Positions 4,333-48,818 of a DNA stretch of 64,000 nt are shown here, piece by piece. Under the pieces are notes generated by a model, which had not been told where the DNA came from, did no database searches, and worked only from the letters and a program-made list of their open reading frames with translations. Every line of letters begins with the position of its first letter. Position 1 is the first letter of the stretch. The position numbers and the translations under genes were made by a program. This DNA comes from a phage. Location: NCBI GenBank assembly GCA_022979955.1, contig GCA_022979955.1_3642.1; one strand, written 5' to 3'.

Positions 4333-5826
4333 TTACTTAGCGTACTCGATTAATTCCACAGTTTTCCCAAAGCTAGGGATATAATTTTTATTATACCCTT
4401 CGGTGAGAACCCATAAAGTATCGTACTTTTTCCACTTGTTGTCAACAGCCTTTTGTTCAAAGTTATGCTCAAAGTATAGGTCGGTCAGGACGATGACATC
4501 TTTTGCATTCGGTATGTTGGCATCCAGATACTCGAACACGCAAGCAGCTGTTGTGCCCCATGTTGAGTGTACCTCATAGTTGATCATCTCGTCTATGTTG
4601 CCGCGAGTGTATACTTTAACCTCTCCGACTTCAGTTGACCAACAGAACATTGTAACCTTAAACTCTTTATACAGATTGCACAATCCGGTGATTTCATTGA
4701 ACATTTTCTTTAAAGTTCTTTGAGAGATCGAGCCAGAAACGTCTAAAGCTACCACAATATCTATGGTGTTTTCCGGATTACGACCAGGAACAATAACGTG
4801 CTGGTTCTTGTTTATAGCCCCAACTTTTCGCATTGTGCTGGTCAAAGACCCAGATCGGCGACCAGGTTTTCTGTAGGTCAGTTCAGCCTTTCGTTTAGAC
4901 AACATGCGTTGCTTGATGATGTCTATATAATTAATTACAGGCTTACCTCTATTCTTGACAAACTCACGAACCGCCTCAGGGCAACGGCCTCCGGAAGCTT
5001 GCATTGCTGCCTCCAGCATGTCACCAGAGTCCTGCATGGCCTGATCTTTATCAGATTGACTGATTACAGGTTGTGGCTGATCATACCCCATAGCCTTTCC
5101 AAGATCATCACTAGTGCCACCGTTACCACTCATGTGATCGTCGGTTTGTCGTTTATCTCCTTGAGAGTTCTCGCCTTTACCGTTCTTACTTTTACCGCTA
5201 TTCTGATCTCTTTGCTTATCAAGAACCGCATAGACGTTCTCAGCAATCCATCCATGGAACCTCATGTCACAGTAGCAACTAGCTAAGAAGCCAAAAGGCT
5301 TACCTTTTACAAACGTAGTGCTTTTCCCCTTCGGGAAGAAAACACAAGGGGGCTTGCTAAAGTCAACCACAAGACCTGTGTTGATAACATGATCACAGGC
5401 AATATTGAACAGCTCCGGCTCAAAACTTTTGCCACGGACCAGATGATCACAGATAATATGCCCCACCTCATGCGATAGAAGAAATGCCACCTCTTTCACA
5501 GATTTTGGGGAATAGAAAACCTCAGCCATCTCAAACTGCTTGTCAGTCAAAGATGCTTTAAGAATGGTTTTGCGCTCATCCGCCAATCCCATAATGAACT
5601 CAGGGCTGTAATAAATGCGTTTATGGTCTGTTGCCATGGTGGAGCACCATGTGTGGTTTTCTACGAACTGCAACCCTGACAACAGTGTGCCATAAAACGG
5701 CAGTTTTTCAAGAAGATACATACGTGCTGCCTGCAGCATTCGCAAGGCGTCATCTTTTTGTGCGGCAATGATTTCTGAACTTCTGCTATCCATTAAAACT
5801 CCAGAAGGGGACTTGGCCCCTGTCAT
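4333..5826 (-). CDS. vWA-domain protein with zincin-like HExxH motif
   Basis: HEVGH (HExxH) in N-terminal half; MIDAS-like DxSGS (ALDVSGS) in C-terminal half; a MoxR-type AAA+ ATPase is encoded at 9456. Confidence 0.7.
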   Translation of the reverse strand: MTGAKSPSGVLMDSRSSEIIAAQKDDALRMLQAARMYLLEKLPFYGTLLSGLQFVENHTWCSTMATDHKRIYYSPEFIMGLADERKTILKASLTDKQFEMAEVFYSPKSVKEVAFLLSHEVGHIICDHLVRGKSFEPELFNIACDHVINTGLVVDFSKPPCVFFPKGKSTTFVKGKPFGFLASCYCDMRFHGWIAENVYAVLDKQRDQNSGKSKNGKGENSQGDKRQTDDHMSGNGGTSDDLGKAMGYDQPQPVISQSDKDQAMQDSGDMLEAAMQASGGRCPEAVREFVKNRGKPVINYIDIIKQRMLSKRKAELTYRKPGRRSGSLTSTMRKVGAINKNQHVIVPGRNPENTIDIVVALDVSGSISQRTLKKMFNEITGLCNLYKEFKVTMFCWSTEVGEVKVYTRGNIDEMINYEVHSTWGTTAACVFEYLDANIPNAKDVIVLTDLYFEHNFEQKAVDNKWKKYDTLWVLTEGYNKNYIPSFGKTVELIEYAK

Positions 5827-6815
5827 TATTTAACGTGCTTGAAAATACCAGCCAACTCGGTCATTGTCATGCGGGTGGTCTTCATAAGGTCTGTCATAGC
5901 CTTCTCCATAATTGGAGATACTACCATAAAGTTACCTTTGGTGAAACCTTTATTCCAATCAGTCACTAATAGTGGTTTAAGTCCGGTCCCGAGACGCTCA
6001 CCAGTTAAAGCACAACATTTTCGAATATACGTGCTCTTAAACTGACTGAATGACAGATCAACTTTCATACCTGCATCGTAGAACGTCTGGCAATAGAAAG
6101 TGTAAGCTTTGGCAATCTCAACATCGTCAGGCAGTGCAGGAACCTCTTCTGTAAGCTCTTCTTCGGCCTCTTGAGGCTCTTTTTCCTCTTCGTGATCCTG
6201 TTGCATCATTTCTTCAATCTCTTCTGTTACAGGCTCATTTACGATGTCAGAAATGTGCTTGTTGGCTCCACGATTAGCCATGAAGTTTTTAAAATCCTGC
6301 ATTGGTGACATATCTTCCTCCCATTCTTCGTCAAAGAGTGCTAGTTTATCCTCTTCCGTTCCATATTGCAAGATGAAATCTTCAAAAGTGTAATCACCTT
6401 TCAATTTCTCCATACGCTCTTCGCTCAGGTGGAGCATCATCTGCTGGACAATTTTTCGATCAGTTTTGTCTTTAATCAAGACTGCGGTCTTTTTATCTAC
6501 CAGACAGTCCTTTAGAGAGTTGCATCTCAATCCCACCACACAACAATTATCAACAGCATAAGGACCTTCATCATCTATCCGCTCTAGGGAGGGGTAGAAA
6601 GGATTTCCCAGTCCGTTTTCATCTGTGTGCATATCGAAAGGTATAAGGGTATAGTCGCACACCCCCTCTCCTAAAAGTTTTTTACCAAATAGGAGGTATT
6701 CTTCCCATGACAGGTTGAACTCTATATCTCGTTTCCGTGCATTATTTTGTTTGCGTCTGTATTTTTTGAGCAAGCGCTCTAACTCTTCTGGTGTATAATA
6801 TTTTTCAAGATTCAT
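5826..6815 (-). CDS. hypothetical protein
   Basis: ORF is open to 7004, but ATG at 6815 lies about 25 nt downstream of a minus-strand promoter with AAGAGA SD-like sequence; the longer start would overlap the promoter and start of the divergent plus gene. Confidence 0.45.
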   Translation of the reverse strand: MNLEKYYTPEELERLLKKYRRKQNNARKRDIEFNLSWEEYLLFGKKLLGEGVCDYTLIPFDMHTDENGLGNPFYPSLERIDDEGPYAVDNCCVVGLRCNSLKDCLVDKKTAVLIKDKTDRKIVQQMMLHLSEERMEKLKGDYTFEDFILQYGTEEDKLALFDEEWEEDMSPMQDFKNFMANRGANKHISDIVNEPVTEEIEEMMQQDHEEEKEPQEAEEELTEEVPALPDDVEIAKAYTFYCQTFYDAGMKVDLSFSQFKSTYIRKCCALTGERLGTGLKPLLVTDWNKGFTKGNFMVVSPIMEKAMTDLMKTTRMTMTELAGIFKHVK

Positions 6816-6846
6816 GAGTTGTCTCTTGTGCTCTGTAGGTGAAGAA

Positions 6847-6875
6847 ATCTTATCAAGTGCCTCAACAGATGTCAA
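6847..6875 (-). promoter_or_regulatory. sigma70-like promoter (leftward)
   Basis: TTGACA-17-TAAGAT read on minus strand. Confidence 0.5.
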
Positions 6876-6888
6876 CCTCAAAAACGTG

Positions 6889-6917
6889 TTGACTTTACCC
6901 CAAATCCACGATATAGT
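6889..6917 (+). promoter_or_regulatory. sigma70-like promoter (rightward)
   Basis: TTGACT-17-TATAGT, back to back with the leftward promoter. Confidence 0.6.
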
Positions 6918-6957
6918 GCACCCATTCGAAAGAAAACGAACACAGGAGTACTTAATC

Positions 6958-7857
6958 ATGGCAAATCTTAACAGCTTTAGCACTCGATGGAAACAAGATA
7001 TCACAACTAATCTCTCAGCAGGCGATATCCTTTCTGCAATTTACGAGGCTTTGGATGATAAAGCTACTTCAAAATCGGTTTGTACCAACCCGTTAATTCC
7101 TATGGTAATGAAGGTGATTGAGCGTAGGTTGGTATCCGGATCTGATAAGTGGACATATCTGGATAATGGAGGCCACACTTACTCCAACGGATATGTCGAT
7201 ATAAAAGTAGAATATGCGGTATCATATCGCCGGAGCGGCTCTGTAACTTTCAACTTCTCTGGTGGTTTCCGATCTCTGGCAACTTCACCTTTTGTTTCCT
7301 CAGAGGAGAGGTTTGAACTTCCGTTCCTTTGGATGATGGCTAACGCGACAGGCAAAACCCCTGTAAGCATTCGCGTAAAATACAACTACAACGGATCTAG
7401 TAAGATCTATGCCGAGAGTGTCTCAGCAAGTTTTTATTTTGTGATGGGGGATGGAATCCTCAAACATATAAAGATGTGCGATATGCATGATGTTATAAAT
7501 GAAGTGACTGATAAGAATGTTCTAGTGAAAGACCTCAACAATTTTTATACACCCGGAGACTATTACGTCAGCCGTCCACTGTGCATCTTTAATGCCGCAC
7601 ACCCTCTAGGTGAGTATTTGATCGCCAATAGCGATATTGCCAATAACCGCTTCGAGGTAGCAAGAGTTCAGAATGAGGTATTGACATCTTGCAAGAGCGG
7701 TGATAAGTTTACCGAAGAAGAGATGGGTGTTTTAGAAATGATGGGATATAAGTGTAGCCTTTGGGTAGATGAGGTGTTTAATGATTGCATCTATGGACAG
7801 GATATTTACCCATTAAAGAAGTATACTGATTCCAGTTTAATTTACGCGGAGATTTGA
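6958..7857 (+). CDS. hypothetical protein
   Basis: ATG at 6958 preceded by AGGAG (6944-6948); the longest-ORF start at 6814 would lie inside the divergent promoter region. Confidence 0.5.
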   Translation: MANLNSFSTRWKQDITTNLSAGDILSAIYEALDDKATSKSVCTNPLIPMVMKVIERRLVSGSDKWTYLDNGGHTYSNGYVDIKVEYAVSYRRSGSVTFNFSGGFRSLATSPFVSSEERFELPFLWMMANATGKTPVSIRVKYNYNGSSKIYAESVSASFYFVMGDGILKHIKMCDMHDVINEVTDKNVLVKDLNNFYTPGDYYVSRPLCIFNAAHPLGEYLIANSDIANNRFEVARVQNEVLTSCKSGDKFTEEEMGVLEMMGYKCSLWVDEVFNDCIYGQDIYPLKKYTDSSLIYAEI

Positions 7858-44627: not shown

Positions 44628-45047
44628 ATGAACATTAAATCTAATAATCCGGCATATAGCTTTGATAACGCTTTTTGTCACGGTCCGGCGGCGAAAGGAT
44701 TCGAAATCGATGGTAAACTAATTATTGTCAATGTTGACGGGGAAGAGGTTGCAGTATATCCGGTGGCAGACGTAAAAAGCCGTTTACAATGCCGCATGGA
44801 TGTTACCGCCTATCAGCTTGATCCGGTCCGCATAGTTGCCCTGGTCCTGGAAGAAGAAATTAAAGCCATGCACCATAGCAACAGATTTATTGGTGACGCG
44901 CAGGATAATATGAAAGTATGCCGCCATAAAGTTAATGAAGTGCTTAAAGAGTACGGCTATAGAGATCTTATGATCAAACGTGAGGAAAAATTCCGCTACC
45001 GTAACGACCTGGCAAATCGGATTTTTGAAATATACGAATCATTATAA
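44628..45047 (+). CDS. hypothetical protein
   Basis: 139-aa ORF with AAGAGG SD; last gene of plus-strand array. Confidence 0.45.
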   Translation: MNIKSNNPAYSFDNAFCHGPAAKGFEIDGKLIIVNVDGEEVAVYPVADVKSRLQCRMDVTAYQLDPVRIVALVLEEEIKAMHHSNRFIGDAQDNMKVCRHKVNEVLKEYGYRDLMIKREEKFRYRNDLANRIFEIYESL

Positions 45048-45065
45048 TTTTTTAACTGAATTATC

Positions 45066-45092
45066 AAGGGGCTTAGGCCCCTTTCTTTTTGT
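45066..45092 (+). terminator. rho-independent terminator
   Basis: AAGGGGC-TTAG-GCCCCTT hairpin followed by TCTTTTTGT. Confidence 0.65.
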
Positions 45093-45689
45093 CTGCTCTT
45101 CTCCTACCATAAACGGCCCTACCTGGCAAGTGGAATAATTGACTAGCCATCAATCCCACATACTGTACAAATATACATGGAAAATAACTATTGCATAATT
45201 TTTCATTGTGTGGTAGCAAGTCCATTTTTACCCGTTTTCTCTCCCAAAAGTGCACGTAATGCCGCTATTGCACAAATTTTAACCTGATGCACATCTCTAA
45301 TATCTTGTCAACAACTAAAAATCTTTATAAGTCATACACTTACACAGCATCGAAAGCGTGTTCTACGCGAAAAATCGAGTATAACTATAGCCGCCAGATC
45401 TCAGAATTCACGTACGCACGCCATTCTATAGCCTGCAAAGTATTTATTCCAACCACAGAATAACGGAATAGTCAATACCTGCATAAAATAATTATTCGTG
45501 TAAACTGCATAACATAAATCAGCTCAGGTGTCAACATTTTTCGTAAACAGTTCGAAATTGTCACGGTAAGTTATTATACACAGAGAAATCTTTAGTCGTC
45601 TAATGGTTACTATACATTACTAATCTGACTGGAATCATTAGATGACTAATAGAAAGATAAGAAATAATTAACAGTCTAATTATATTAAC

Positions 45690-45970
45690 GATAACAATAA
45701 CAGCGGTTAAAGTCATGGCGCGACGGAGTCGCGACATAATAACACCGAGTAACCCTCACCCCCGTGAGCGTTGCGAATGTTATTATGCCATGACTAAATC
45801 ATTTCAACACGTAACTATAGGCATAACAACATTCCCTCGGTGTTATTATGTCGCTAGTTATTATATAACTGTTAACAATAACGCCTCGGGAATAGTTCTG
45901 CCTGCACGATGTTTATAACAGCAAGTTATGATCAACATTTCACAGATTATAATAACAGCGGTTAAAGTCA
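45690..45970. repeat. direct-repeat pair flanking a 19-bp inverted repeat
   Basis: AATAACAGCGGTTAAAGTCA exact at 45696-45715 and 45951-45970; inside, GCGACATAATAACACCGAG (45731-45749) and its reverse complement (45836-45854). Confidence 0.6.
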
Positions 45971-46597
45971 GGCGTAGAAACAGTGGAAGTGTAAACAGTC
46001 AATCATGTAAATGATAAGTATGTGAACAGTTATCCATGTAAACTATTAGACATGTAAACAATCAGGTGTGCAAAAGTGTCAAGGGTGTCACCATTGTGTC
46101 TAAAGTGTCGTATGTCATCAGTATGTCAGACAAGTTTTTCTCCTCTTTGTCAAGTGCTGCATGAAAAATTTACAATCTTGTATGGTAGCATTTTTGCGGT
46201 CCTGTTTACATTCAGAGATGTATGTATAATCCTTGTTGTGTGGGCGTTTAGACGTCTAGACGGTCAGAAGTCTGCAGGTCAATATCTAATCTATTGGCTG
46301 CTAACTATATCCCACACAAATAGTAAGAAATATAATTGTTATATGCGTAAACAGTAACCCATGTTATCAATCCCTGTATGGATCGCCAGTGGTGCGCATA
46401 ATGGGTATTATGTTAAATTGCCCGTAATGATAATGGTTCTCACAATGATATGTATTCTCATTCCCCCACACAAAATAGATTGCAAATGTTGTGCCACTAT
46501 GTGAACGGCCTCACCTATTAATTTGCCTCACTGCCTCGATATTTGAGAATTATTATAAGAATGAGAAGTATTCCCATTTCGTCCGCCTGGCAGCGCT

Positions 46598-46657
46598 CCT
46601 GTAGGTCCTGCAAGGACTCTAGCTGAAAGCTAGACCCTTCGGGCCTCCCTGTAGGTC
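46598..46657. other. three consecutive tetraloop hairpins bracketed by CCTGTAGGTC direct repeats
   Basis: GTCCT-GCA-AGGAC, CTAGC-TGAAA-GCTAG, CCC-TTCG-GGG; CCTGTAGGTC at 46598 and 46648. Confidence 0.4.
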
Positions 46658-46705
46658 AGGTCAAAATCGTGGTAGAATTGGGCCTATTCAGATATTTCTG
46701 GCTGG

Positions 46706-46900
46706 CTCTTCAGGTCTGTGTGGGAAAAGCCAACCTCTCCGGCGGGGCAGGGGGAGGTAAATTAAAAAATTTACGGGGTATATGAAGCGCTCTTCAGGTA
46801 AGGCATGTACTATGGGATGAAACCCTCTTCAGGCAATGATATTTGTGGGTGTGATATTTGCTGGAAAGCCAGATATGACGGGACTCCCGGCGGGGCAGGG
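46706..46900. repeat. degenerate tandem unit CTCTTCAGG...CCGGCGGGGCAGGG
   Basis: CTCTTCAGG at 46706, 46790, 46825 (also 47238, 47886); CCGGCGGGGCAGGG at 46739 and 46887. Confidence 0.55.
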
Positions 46901-47596
46901 GTAGTACAGACAGGGAAAATATGAGAATGTAGTTGGGGAAATTGATCAGACAGGTAGAGTATGGAATATGTTACAAGTATGTTAAATATGGAGGTTGAAT
47001 ATCTGTAGGATTTGTGTGTAAAATCAAAGACTTAAGGGGTGTTGTGGTATTTTCTATAAATAATTCAAGTTTAATAGGCAATATTTGTCTCTATCCGCTT
47101 TGTGTGGTAAACAGATTCAGATTAGATTGGTTTACAAGTGTATACATAATATACAAATTAAAGATACAAGAAACCCCCCTCCCCCTTCGGCTACCATTCA
47201 CCTTTTCCTCTGACTGGTACTTAAACACTTATTCAGACTCTTCAGGTTATCACCCATATATCATATGGCAGTGACTGGTGTCCTCCGGCCCCTCTTTCGT
47301 CACCCGTCCGCTTCGCCATGCTAATGCCATAGCTAATGGTTCGGTTGTTCACCCTGTTCACTCAGGTGTATCTCTATACCCCTTCAAACCGAAGAGAACA
47401 GAAAACCCGAATTACTCGGTAAAAGAAAAGAGAAGAACTTAATTTTATCAGGATAGGCAAGAATGTCAAGGCATGACTGCTCACTAAACAAGCAAACAGT
47501 CATGTGTGGGAGGTAAGTGATTGTGGTGGTAGGAAATTTAGTTGAAAGATGTGTTATAGGTGCTTCCAGCACTTTAGCCTGGCAGCTAATTGTGTG

Positions 47597-47812
47597 TCAG
47601 TCCAGCGGTTCATCCTCTACTTCACTGAAATCAATGTTCATGGTCTCTTCCCAACCATCGATCTCAGCACAAGAGTGGAGTTCTTTAGGGTTTACTCCCA
47701 AAGCCTCAGCAACAGAGTCTATATTTAACACCTCTGGCAGGTATGTTTCATCGAATTCAAGGTAAATCAGGCCACGAGTGTTGTCAGCTCCACCAAATAT
47801 TTCTATCTTCAT
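47597..47812 (-). CDS. hypothetical acidic protein
   Basis: 71-aa ORF; last gene of minus-strand block. Confidence 0.4.
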   Translation of the reverse strand: MKIEIFGGADNTRGLIYLEFDETYLPEVLNIDSVAEALGVNPKELHSCAEIDGWEETMNIDFSEVEDEPLD

Positions 47813-47933
47813 GAAATCTCCTCTGGAAATGAGAGTGTGAACAGGGTTTTATACGTTCCAATGCACTGGAATTATACACGTTTGCCTCTTCAGGCCATGC
47901 TTTAGCATGAGGAGCCTGTGTGGGCTCGGTGCT

Positions 47934-48347
47934 TCATAGTCTACCACCTCTGAACTCTTCGTGCTCAGGCATAATAGAGAACCAGATATCTACGATGTCT
48001 TCCCACGTTAGGTCATCAGCCTCAGGATCTGTCTGGGACGAAGATGGAGAATCTTCAGAATCGAAGTTTTCCTCTTGCACTGGCTCAGTCAAGGGACATA
48101 TAGTCACTCCTTTGGATGTCTCTTCAGATGCATGTGTGTTTATCATGTTCCACCCGTGAGTATTCCGGCAACAGCCACTATGGACGTAATGATCATCAGG
48201 ATCACCACCAAAACCTCTGACAATGTTTTCATTGTGTATCCCATATTCTCCAAACGATGTGTGGATACTATCACTGGAGCGGCAATGTGTCAACAGAAAC
48301 GCCGCGAGGGTTTGGTTAAAATCCGAGCGTATGGTGATTTGGGTCAA
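47934..48347 (-). CDS. hypothetical protein
   Basis: 137-aa ORF. Confidence 0.45.
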   Translation of the reverse strand: MTQITIRSDFNQTLAAFLLTHCRSSDSIHTSFGEYGIHNENIVRGFGGDPDDHYVHSGCCRNTHGWNMINTHASEETSKGVTICPLTEPVQEENFDSEDSPSSSQTDPEADDLTWEDIVDIWFSIMPEHEEFRGGRL

Positions 48348-48506
48348 AACGGACGTGCGTTCTCGCTACGCTCGAAAGAGAGACTTGTTTGTAGAAAGCT
48401 CTTAAACGCTCTGTAACGAGATTATCTGTCCAAGGTATGCAATCGTGCACCAGATAAAGAAAAGGACGCCACAGAGCGTCCTAGGTGTCTTAAATTTGAT
48501 ATTTTG

Positions 48507-48818
48507 CTATACCCATGAGGGCTTATCAAGGTTGGAGTAGCTGAAAGGTGTCAAAAGGTGACTGTCAAAATCCCTCAAACTATCCAAATCTTTTTCCTCG
48601 TCCTGACACCATCTGTGCCTACATTTATTGTTGTAGTGCATAGAATGCATAGCGTTCTGCAACTTAACAGGTACAAGTGATTCAGGAGTAGATAGTATTG
48701 TTGGGTATGCCAGAATCACCTCAAACAGTGGAAACACATCGAAACTAAAGTCTACCTCTGCAGAGGTTGATGGCATATAGGAGTATTTAGCCGCCTTTGT
48801 AGACATAATCCACCTCAC
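48507..48818 (-). CDS. hypothetical protein
   Basis: 103-aa ORF. Confidence 0.4.
   Translation of the reverse strand: MRWIMSTKAAKYSYMPSTSAEVDFSFDVFPLFEVILAYPTILSTPESLVPVKLQNAMHSMHYNNKCRHRWCQDEEKDLDSLRDFDSHLLTPFSYSNLDKPSWV

What the first reader, a model, noticed from the sequence alone, without database searches (positions are those of the whole stretch)
45690..45970. 20-bp perfect direct repeats flanking a 19-bp perfect inverted repeat
AATAACAGCGGTTAAAGTCA is exact at 45696-45715 and 45951-45970 (about 25 nt with two mismatches when extended). Between them, GCGACATAATAACACCGAG (45731-45749) and its exact reverse complement (45836-45854) could form a long stem with an 86-nt loop; a GTCGCGAC palindrome lies just upstream of the left arm. 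The arrangement resembles a small insertion with duplicated target or att-like sites, or a cruciform element, but has no ORF.
Basis: seen in the sequence. Interest (0 to 1): 0.55.

Follow-up and report, generated by a model that had tools for sequence, protein, structure and literature searches.

The report
Swappable structured DNA cassette beside phage terminal repeat
The repeats are real and belong to a conserved, non-coding, hairpin-forming cassette that sits next to the terminal repeat of rV5-like phages; this phage carries a unique sequence version of it, one relative has lost it precisely, and its function is still unknown.

Summary
The window is a Vequintavirus (rV5-like) phage, and the feature lies in a 3.4-kb non-coding gap, 159 bp from the 459-bp direct terminal repeat (DTR-equivalent 46129-46587).

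It is not an insertion peculiar to this phage. 118 related records carry a homologous unit at the same site with the same architecture: 20-nt direct repeat, small GC hairpin, long perfect inverted repeat enclosing two hairpins, spacer, second direct repeat, iteron array, DTR. Their repeat sequences differ ("type A"). The window's "type B" was found nowhere else. More distant phages have further versions (C, D) with the same fold.

Between A and B both direct-repeat copies changed identically and the stems changed with full compensation. Flanks stay 98% identical to a type-A genome, so this is a recent cassette swap bounded by the direct repeats. Phage FV3 has a precise deletion leaving one repeat copy, so the unit is a discrete, dispensable indel.

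Transposon, att site, known RNA family and coding gene are rejected or unsupported. Best reading (about 0.42): an accessory cis-acting, structure-forming DNA element for replication or concatemer processing at the genome end. Main rival: a structured non-coding RNA.

The parts
45600..45699 (.). AT-rich tract (24% GC, lowest of the gap) immediately left of the cassette. Contains two TTAG-N4-CTAA palindromes (45592-45603, 45638-45649). Nearly invariant in relatives.
45690..45715 (+). Left direct repeat (DR-L). Exact 20-mer at 45696-45715. Left boundary of the type-B-specific island.
45720..45735 (.). Conserved GC element GCGAC-GGA-GTCGC (5-bp hairpin) that includes the GTCGCGAC palindrome. Identical in types A and B; GGCGCGAC...GCGACA also present in type C.
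45731..45749 (+). Left arm of the 19-bp perfect inverted repeat (outer stem). The proximal GACATAATA is shared with type A; the distal ACACCGAG is type-B specific.
45751..45772 (.). Hairpin 1: AACCCTCAC-CCCC-GTGAGCGTT. Conserved in types A and B with one compensated pair (A-T to C-G). Related hairpin TAACCATC-GGTG-ATGGTTA in Phapecoctavirus ESCO25.
45775..45834 (.). Hairpin 2: 15-bp arms GAATGTTATTATGCC / GGCATAACAACATTC (one A.C mismatch on +, G.T on -), 30-nt loop. Type-specific sequence.
45836..45854 (-). Right arm of the 19-bp perfect inverted repeat.
45855..45944 (.). Spacer between the structured core and DR-R. The equivalent stretch is indel-variable among type-A phages (DR spacing 227-294).
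45945..45970 (+). Right direct repeat (DR-R). Exact 20-mer at 45951-45970. The type-B island ends about 15 nt further on (about 45985).
45990..46065 (+). Iteron array GT[AG]AAC[ATC][AG]T (45991, 46022, 46038, 46054), all in one orientation. Copy number varies among relatives. One further copy left of the cassette at 45543.
46076..46128 (+). GTGTCA-type short repeats abutting the terminal-repeat boundary.
46129..46587 (.). Equivalent of the 459-bp direct terminal repeat of Vequintavirus virion DNA (435/459 identical, ungapped, to Gotham's annotated repeat).

Best explanation
The feature is this phage's copy of a conserved, single-copy, non-coding cassette found beside the direct terminal repeat of rV5-like phages and, in related form, of phAPEC8/phi92-like phages. 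Its layout is: AT-rich tract, 20-nt direct repeat, 5-bp GC hairpin, a branched inverted repeat of about 125 nt (perfect 15-19-bp outer stem enclosing two hairpins), variable spacer, second direct repeat, iteron array, DTR. I propose that it acts in cis at the DNA level. When the neighbouring AT-rich DNA is unwound or made single-stranded during replication or concatemer processing, the inverted repeat folds into a branched hairpin or cruciform. That structure would serve as an accessory architectural or loading signal for the replication or end-processing machinery that uses the adjacent iterons and DTR boundary. The two direct repeats make the unit a block that can be deleted precisely (as in FV3) and exchanged as a whole; they may also be paired binding sites. 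SHOWN: the anatomy; the conserved position next to the DTR; the conserved fold with compensated changes; the identical change of both direct repeats; the cassette boundaries; the recent A-to-B swap; dispensability in FV3; single copy per genome. INFERRED: DNA-level rather than RNA-level action; the link to replication or end processing; any protein binding.
For: Position: 159 bp from the DTR-equivalent. In the complete Gotham genome every component occurs only at 593-843, which is 134-384 bp inside the left DTR. The order 139-aa gene, module, DTR is shared with Stephanstirmvirinae (DTRs documented in PMC7471380, PMC6563267, PMC12210895, PMC12695924). Context: AT-richest 100 nt directly adjacent, and iterons on both sides. 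Structure under selection: four sequence types give the same topology, z from -3 to -11. A versus B shows at least 4 compensated pairs plus a paired indel in the outer stem and one compensated pair in hairpin 1. ESCO25 versus BME3 shows 2 compensated pairs. HMD-6 has compensating changes in the inner hairpin. DNA rather than RNA: the five outer stems inspected (83 pairs) are all Watson-Crick with no G.U; there are no consistent promoters or terminators in types A, B or C; there is no Rfam match. Purifying selection: 118 of 120 related records keep the unit at 85-100% identity. Precedent: T7-type DTR phages must duplicate the repeat, and a DNA hairpin intermediate has been observed (PMC4281155, citing Chung and Hinkle 1990 and Molineux 2006).
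Against: FV3 lacks the whole unit and is a published, viable phage. The element therefore cannot be an essential pac site or the only origin; at most it is accessory or redundant. No protein in the 64-kb window co-varies with the type-B switch, including DNA polymerase and primase/helicase. T7 itself has only weak, short inverted repeats next to its repeat, so that precedent is loose. The role of the direct repeats is unexplained. An 86-nt loop disfavours simple cruciform extrusion from duplex DNA. There is no experimental evidence on this region for any member of the group; the rV5 paper only labels it 'non-coding'.
Confidence: 0.42

Rival explanations
1. It is a gene for a structured non-coding RNA of about 130-260 nt. 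The GC hairpin plus branched stem is the RNA fold, and the direct repeats are processing or transcription signals at either side. The RNA has an accessory role such as host takeover or anti-defence, which would explain why FV3 can live without it.
For: The fold is conserved while the sequence diverges, with compensated changes, and hairpin 1 with its loop is conserved between types A and B. The unit lies in a gap bracketed by good terminators of the flanking operons and is dispensable. Two inner-hairpin mismatches (C.A in type A hairpin 1, A.C in type B hairpin 2) would become G.U on the minus strand, and the minus strand folds slightly better in all types. Strong sigma-70-like minus-strand promoters at 47469-47442 and 48293-48265 point toward it.
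Against: No Rfam family matches at E <= 5. No conserved promoter or intrinsic terminator flanks the unit in types A, B or C. The outer stems are perfectly Watson-Crick over 15-19 bp with no wobble pair in 83 pairs, which is unusual for RNA helices and would make an RNase III substrate. Identical direct repeats are not explained by RNA folding. The constant proximity to the DTR is not required for an RNA gene.
Confidence: 0.25
2. It is a small non-autonomous mobile or integrative element (MITE-like or att-flanked) that inserted here. The 20-bp direct repeats are a duplicated target or att core.
For: FV3 looks like an 'empty site' with a single copy of the 20-mer. The unit is exactly bounded by the repeats. 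It has no ORF.
Against: The same flanks carry different 20-mers in types A and B, so the repeat travels with the cassette and is not a target. The inverted-repeat arms lie 15 and 96 nt inside the repeats, not at the termini. There is one copy per phage genome and none in E. coli genomes, plasmids or IMG/VR. 20 bp is longer than the usual target duplications of about 2-15 bp (general knowledge, not a tool result). The unit is present in 118 of 120 related records at one fixed site, and homologous or analogous units sit at the syntenic site in other genera. No transposase or integrase is associated.
Confidence: 0.06
3. The cassette is the essential packaging-recognition (pac) site or the sole replication origin. 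The lineage-specific repeats are binding sites for a co-evolving terminase small subunit or initiator protein.
For: Single copy, DTR-proximal, next to iterons and an AT-rich tract. Coordinated change of the repeated sequences resembles specificity switching. The terminase genes lie outside the window, so co-variation cannot be excluded.
Against: FV3 lacks it entirely. A type-A phage 98% identical in the flanks exists. Replication genes in the window are about 95% identical to those of type-A phages. There are only two direct-repeat copies 255 bp apart, unlike iteron or R-site arrays.
Confidence: 0.08
4. It has no function for the phage. It is a fast-evolving non-coding palindrome whose perfect arms and repeats are maintained mechanically (template switching at quasi-palindromes, slippage or gene conversion) and are tolerated in a gene-free gap.
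For: It is dispensable in FV3. The stems are perfect, as expected from templated correction. Indel-rich spacers and variable iteron numbers occur nearby.
Against: It is retained in 118 of 120 records at 85-100% identity, with invariant DR, stem and hairpin-1 sequences, while the adjacent spacer and iterons vary. The same branched topology recurs in four sequence types across two subfamilies at the syntenic position. Deletion-prone 20-bp repeats persisting in three types argues for selection.
Confidence: 0.12

Closest known systems
Concatemer-junction region of T7/T3-type DTR phages (short repeat series SRL/SRR flanking the terminal repeat; hairpin intermediate in terminal-repeat duplication)
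   Same: Non-coding, single-copy region directly abutting a short direct terminal repeat. Series of short repeats lie between it and the repeat boundary. A DNA hairpin is implicated in end processing (PMC4281155). rV5-like phages also have a T7 gp4-like primase/helicase.
   Different: T7's own right end shows only weak inverted repeats (12 nt, 83%) and no flanking 20-nt direct repeats. The T7 signals involve phage RNA-polymerase promoters, which rV5-like phages lack. The T7 element is needed for packaging, whereas FV3 lives without this unit.
Iteron-type replication origins (lambda ori, P4 ori/crr, plasmid oriV) and structure-defined single-strand initiation signals (ssi/sso of plasmids and small phages)
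   Same: AT-rich tract plus same-orientation iterons plus a structure-prone palindrome. For sso/ssi signals the fold is conserved while the sequence differs between types, and they are accessory rather than essential (established knowledge, from memory).
   Different: No adjacent or co-varying initiator gene. The two 20-nt repeats are 255 bp apart, not an array. There is no evidence of rolling-circle or single-strand replication in these phages. The skew signal follows transcription only.
cos/pac sites with accessory protein-binding repeats (lambda cosB R sites, P1 pac hexamers, SPP1 pacL/pacR)
   Same: Repeated short sites within a few hundred bp of the terminase cut site. Allelic 'specificity' variants exist among related phages.
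   Different: Those sites are essential and co-vary with the small terminase subunit. Here the unit is absent from a viable relative, and no branched palindrome is part of the known sites.
MITEs / IS elements with target-site duplications, and att-flanked integrative elements
   Same: Direct repeats flank an ORF-less unit that contains an inverted repeat, and one relative has a single-repeat 'empty' configuration.
   Different: The repeat differs between alleles in identical flanks. The inverted repeat is internal, not terminal. Single copy, fixed locus. No recombinase.
Structured phage or bacterial non-coding RNAs with a long closing stem (6S RNA, Y-RNA-like YrlA, T4 stable RNAs C/D)
   Same: Long closing helix with internal hairpins; fold conserved with little sequence conservation; dispensable.
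   Different: No Rfam match. No transcription signals. Perfectly Watson-Crick 15-19-bp stems. Flanking direct repeats.

Membership tests
Transposable element with target-site duplication (MITE/IS) | Terminal inverted repeats abut the duplicated target | tested here: not met
   The inverted-repeat arms (45731-45749, 45836-45854) lie 15 nt and 96 nt inside the direct repeats.
Transposable element with target-site duplication (MITE/IS) | The direct repeat is the pre-existing target sequence (same flanks give the same repeat; the empty site has one copy) | tested here: not met
   FV3 has one copy of the type-A 20-mer. However, the window has a different 20-mer in flanks 98% identical to a type-A genome.
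Transposable element with target-site duplication (MITE/IS) | Multiple copies or occurrence at unrelated loci | tested here: not met
   Two DR copies and one IR pair only in the window. One module in the 137-kb Gotham genome. Nothing in E. coli genomes, plasmids or IMG/VR.
att-flanked integrative element | Identical core sequence on both sides, and a single core at the empty site | tested here: met
   20/20 identical repeats; FV3 has the single-repeat configuration.
att-flanked integrative element | Associated site-specific recombinase and cargo genes | tested here: not met
   No conserved ORF in the unit. Neighbouring genes are of unknown function with no recombinase hit.
Iteron-type replication origin | Array of three or more same-orientation repeats plus an adjacent AT-rich unwinding element | tested here: inconclusive
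   An AT-rich tract (24% GC) and a GTAAACAGT array flank the unit. The reported 20-mers themselves are only two copies, 255 bp apart.
Iteron-type replication origin | Cognate initiator protein that co-varies with the repeats | tested here: not met
   The window is 96-99% covered at 95-96% identity by type-A phages. Genes outside the window are untestable.
Iteron-type replication origin / pac site | Required in cis for replication or packaging | tested here: not met
   FV3 lacks the unit. Caveat: redundancy, or an assembly error in that record, cannot be excluded.
T7-type concatemer-junction processing element | Lies in unique DNA within a few hundred bp of a short direct terminal repeat | tested here: met
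   159 bp from the DTR-equivalent; 134-384 bp in Gotham; under about 300-400 bp in BME3 and ESCO25.
T7-type concatemer-junction processing element | Forms a hairpin intermediate during concatemer processing; depends on phage RNA-polymerase promoter and pause signals | not testable with these tools
   Only in-silico folding is available. rV5-like phages encode no known phage RNA polymerase (own knowledge).
Known RNA family (Rfam 15) / tRNA / tmRNA | Covariance-model or ARAGORN match | tested here: not met
   No Rfam match at E <= 5 in 44900-48600; no tRNA or tmRNA in the window.
Independent ncRNA gene | Own promoter and terminator conserved among alleles | tested here: not met
   Consensus scans of types B, A and C give no shared sites. 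Sigma-70 and intrinsic-terminator models only.

The most novel reading that the evidence does not exclude
The cassette is an exchangeable 'identity tag' for the genome end. In this reading it is a structure-defined cis element whose lineage-specific repeats and stem sequences set which co-infecting genomes, or satellites, are recognised for end processing or replication. It would be swapped as a block between phages and be precisely excisable through its 20-nt repeats. Types A, B, C and D would then be incompatibility alleles.
Probability: 0.12. Interest if true: 0.75.

Novelty: new variant of a known kind. Interest (0 to 1): 0.52.

Why it matters
rV5-like and phAPEC8/phi92-like phages are widely isolated and used for typing, biocontrol and therapy. 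Yet the 3-kb gene-free region around their terminal repeat is undescribed; the rV5 genome paper marks it only as 'non-coding' and did not define an origin. This analysis defines a discrete element there with clear signs of selection: a conserved fold, compensated substitutions and identically changing repeats. It also finds natural alleles (A, B, C, D), a natural swap in a 98%-identical background and a natural deletion (FV3). These are ready-made genetic reagents for asking how short-DTR myoviruses replicate or process their ends, or for discovering a new phage RNA. For genome engineering it marks a site that tolerates replacement and deletion.

Tried and rejected
- Rfam E-value scan of the whole gap: nothing. 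ARAGORN: no tRNA or tmRNA.
- Coding potential: the 67-aa ORF is not conserved and not on record.
- Search for other type-B carriers, all negative: INPHARED blastn, E. coli genomes and plasmids, IMG/VR 17-mers (all eight hits were chance matches), metagenome and genome collections via the invariant core.
- A loose IMG/VR pattern (GGCGCGAC-N9-GCGACA) returned only unrelated contigs, none with a module-like inverted repeat. Loci L030 and above are junk.
- Co-varying protein: none in the window. Terminase is not in the window, so that test could not be completed.
- GC skew as an origin indicator: it follows transcription direction only.
- Neighbouring genes (139, 87, 90 and 58 aa): no Pfam domain, and the PHROG families that match have unknown function; the 58-aa ORF matched none.
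- Promoter and terminator scans: no signal shared by types A, B and C. Type A's hairpin 1 looks terminator-like on the minus strand, but this is not conserved in type B.
- T7 right end as a structural match: rejected, a loose analogy only.
- The BME3 record is mis-joined around its DTR, so it was used only as weak support.

Full report
OBSERVATION. The reported repeats are exactly where stated. The 20-mer AATAACAGCGGTTAAAGTCA occurs at 45696-45715 and 45951-45970, extending to 26 nt at 92% identity. The 19-mer GCGACATAATAACACCGAG at 45731-45749 has its exact reverse complement at 45836-45854. Allowing 3 mismatches, each occurs only at these positions in the 64-kb window. Shuffles give expectations of 0.02 and 0.00. 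As single-stranded DNA, the stretch 45690-45970 folds to -50.2 kcal/mol, z = -6.4. The long stem encloses two further hairpins: AACCCTCAC-CCCC-GTGAGCGTT at 45751-45772, and GAATGTTATTATGCC / GGCATAACAACATTC at 45775-45834. The stem is preceded by a small GC hairpin, GCGAC-GGA-GTCGC at 45720-45732.

CONTEXT. The window is a Vequintavirus (rV5-like) phage. The + strand operon ends at a good terminator (45066-45083) and the - strand operon ends at 48463-48482. The feature therefore lies in a gap of about 3.4 kb without conserved genes; the rV5 genome paper shows this region only as a 'non-coding' box and could not define an origin (PMC3606486). Vequintavirus virions have fixed ends with direct terminal repeats (DTRs) of 458-459 bp (PMC7471380, PMC6563267). 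Gotham's annotated repeat aligns ungapped to window 46129-46587, 435/459 identical. The cassette thus ends 159 bp from the DTR boundary. In between lie an array of same-orientation GTAAACAGT-type iterons (45991-46054; copy number varies among relatives) and GTGTCA repeats. Immediately left of the cassette is the most AT-rich 100 nt of the gap (24% GC, 45600-45699), with two TTAG-N4-CTAA palindromes and another iteron copy at 45543.

THE SAME ARCHITECTURE WITH DIFFERENT SEQUENCES. Aligning the window with relatives and inspecting 14 loci shows that they carry the same layout at the same place with other repeat sequences; I call this type A. Their direct repeat is ATGCAAACGAATGGCATGGC, with exactly two copies 227-294 nt apart. 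Their inverted repeat is GACATAATATAAAAGCAG / CTGCTTTTATATTATGTC. Only the GC hairpin, the proximal half of the outer stem (GACATAATA) and hairpin 1 are shared with the window.

Between type A and the window's type B, several changes are coordinated:
- Both direct-repeat copies changed identically at about 14 of 20 positions.
- The outer stem shows at least four fully compensated pair substitutions plus a paired 1-nt indel.
- Hairpin 1 shows one compensated pair, A-T to C-G.

More distant Vequintavirinae (A73, A5-4, LTH01, W70) were found through the neighbouring 87-aa and 139-aa genes. They share no detectable nucleotide similarity with the window's gap, yet they have a type C unit. It consists of the direct repeat ATTGCCAGAGTATGG[A/C]GG, 406-426 nt apart; a GGCGCGAC...GCGACA element; and a 21-nt inverted repeat (16 bp perfect) enclosing two small hairpins.

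Phapecoctavirus ESCO25 and the phi92-like phage BME3 belong to a different subfamily. They carry a type D unit in the same position relative to the shared 139-aa gene: a 5' hairpin followed by a 15-bp perfect outer stem enclosing two or three hairpins. One of these hairpins, TAACCATC-GGTG-ATGGTTA, resembles hairpin 1 of types A and B. The outer stems of ESCO25 and BME3 differ by two compensated pairs.

All types fold into the same topology, with z-scores from -3 to -11. The five outer stems inspected total 83 base pairs, all Watson-Crick, with no G.U-type pair.

THE TYPE-B ALLELE IS UNIQUE AND RECENT. None of 118 INPHARED records shares the type-B-specific sequence; only the conserved core matches. 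E. coli genomes gave no match, and the GTDB genome collection has no exact copy of the invariant core. The rest of the window is 96-99% covered at 95-96% identity by type-A phages, including DNA polymerase and primase/helicase. A Logan assembly (SRR10049553) encodes the identical 139-aa neighbour protein. It is 98.2-98.4% identical to the window over 2.1 kb on the left and 1.9 kb on the right, yet it carries a type-A unit. A sliding identity profile puts the breakpoints at about 45,690 (start of DR-L) and about 45,985 (15 nt after DR-R), with only 45,715-45,744 staying near 97%. The difference is therefore a recent replacement of the whole repeat-bounded cassette, not gradual divergence. The donor lineage is unsampled.

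PRESENCE/ABSENCE TEST. Searching with Gotham's full unit finds it in 120 records at 85-100% identity over DR-L to IR-R, except phage FV3, which accounts for two records. FV3 reads ...AAGGCAACT-ATGCAAACGAATGTCATGGC-TTATCATATCTGCGTAAAC... That is the left flank, one direct-repeat copy, and then directly the sequence that normally follows DR-R. This is the product expected from recombination or slippage between the two repeats. The unit is thus a discrete indel and is dispensable for a propagatable phage, unless that record is mis-assembled. In the complete Gotham genome every component occurs only once, at 593-843.

WHAT IT IS NOT.
- Not a transposon with a target duplication. The repeat differs between alleles sitting in the same flanks, the inverted repeat is internal to the unit, and there is a single copy at one fixed locus.
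- Not an att-flanked integrative element in the usual sense, because no recombinase or cargo is associated.
- Not a known RNA family or tRNA.
- Not a protein gene.
- Not an essential pac site or the sole origin (FV3).

MOST LIKELY MECHANISM. Several facts point to selection on the ability of this DNA to form a branched hairpin or cruciform near the genome end:
- the fixed position between the 139-aa gene and the DTR in two subfamilies;
- the embedding between an AT-rich tract and iterons;
- the perfectly Watson-Crick stems;
- the lack of any shared promoter or terminator.

I therefore favour, at about 0.42, an accessory cis-acting DNA element for replication initiation or concatemer and terminal-repeat processing. 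T7-type phages offer a loose precedent: the repeat must be duplicated during processing, and a hairpin intermediate has been observed (PMC4281155). T7's own inverted repeats near its terminal repeat are weak, however.

The direct repeats remain the least explained part. They change together with the cassette and are conserved despite being deletion-prone. They may be paired binding sites, or they may simply be the features that make the cassette excisable and exchangeable.

The main rival, at about 0.25, is a structured non-coding RNA. This is supported by the compensated changes, the dispensability, and two mismatches that would become G.U pairs on the minus strand.

LIMITS. Function is inferred, not shown. 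The terminase genes lie outside the window, so co-variation with a packaging protein could not be tested. The virion ends of type-C phages are unmapped. The BME3 record is mis-joined around its DTR. The FV3 deletion rests on a single published sequence.

Noticed in passing
window 46129-46587: Equivalent of the 459-bp direct terminal repeat of Vequintavirus virion DNA (435/459 identical to Gotham's). The window therefore spans the junction of the physical genome ends.
   Followed up: yes
window 45990-46128 (also 45543, 46347): Array of same-orientation GT[AG]AAC[ATC][AG]T iterons followed by GTGTCA repeats, right up to the DTR boundary. Copy number and sequence vary strongly among otherwise near-identical relatives (mean identity 0.45-0.65). 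These are candidate binding sites for a terminase or replication protein.
   Followed up: partly
window 45592-45603 and 45638-45649: Two TTAG-N4-CTAA palindromes (only three in 64 kb) in a nearly invariant AT-rich tract. They look like operator sites for a dimeric DNA-binding protein.
   Followed up: no
window 47469-47442 and 48293-48265 (minus strand): Two strong sigma-70-like promoters (11/12 with TG, and 10/12 with TG) inside the 'non-coding' gap. They point toward the DTR and the cassette. The first is followed by no convincing ORF, so it may drive an untranslated transcript that reaches the cassette only when the genome ends are joined.
   Followed up: no
window 46739-46756 / 46887-46904 and 46782-46801 / 46817-46836: Further direct repeats (CCGGCGGGGCAGGGGGAG, 148 nt apart; ATGAAGCGCTCTTCAGGTAA, 35 nt apart) on the other side of the DTR. 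Similar GGCGGGG-containing repeats occur in type-C phages.
   Followed up: no
window 44628-45047: The 139-aa protein of unknown function (phrog_12277) is 88-90% identical between Vequintavirinae and Phapecoctavirus (Stephanstirmvirinae), far more conserved than the surrounding DNA. It always borders the module-containing gap, but it is absent from some type-A phages (Gotham, Alma).
   Followed up: partly
L154 (phage FV3, NC_019517) 1300-1345: Precise deletion of the whole DR-bounded unit, leaving one 20-mer. This is the only such case among 120 related records.
   Followed up: yes
L014 (phage A73) 6755-6915: 103-bp tandem duplication that creates a third copy of the type-C direct repeat. A5-4, LTH01 and W70 have two copies.
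   Followed up: partly
L152/L153 (phage BME3, PP239276) record 146170-147371 and 1-1200: The deposited record has Ns, a 789-bp perfect duplication and the DTR in tandem around the annotated DTR. This is probably an end-joining artefact of assembly.
   Followed up: partly
database records: About 18 'Campylobacter phage' records (MG0656xx) and a 137.6-kb E. coli 'plasmid' (CP057073.1) are rV5-like coliphage genomes, so they are likely mislabelled or misfiled.
   Followed up: no
window 4336-7004 (minus strand): Two adjacent large HNH-endonuclease-family ORFs (497 and 392 aa). The second also matches Srd anti-sigma / sigma-70-decoy families at lower scores.
   Followed up: no
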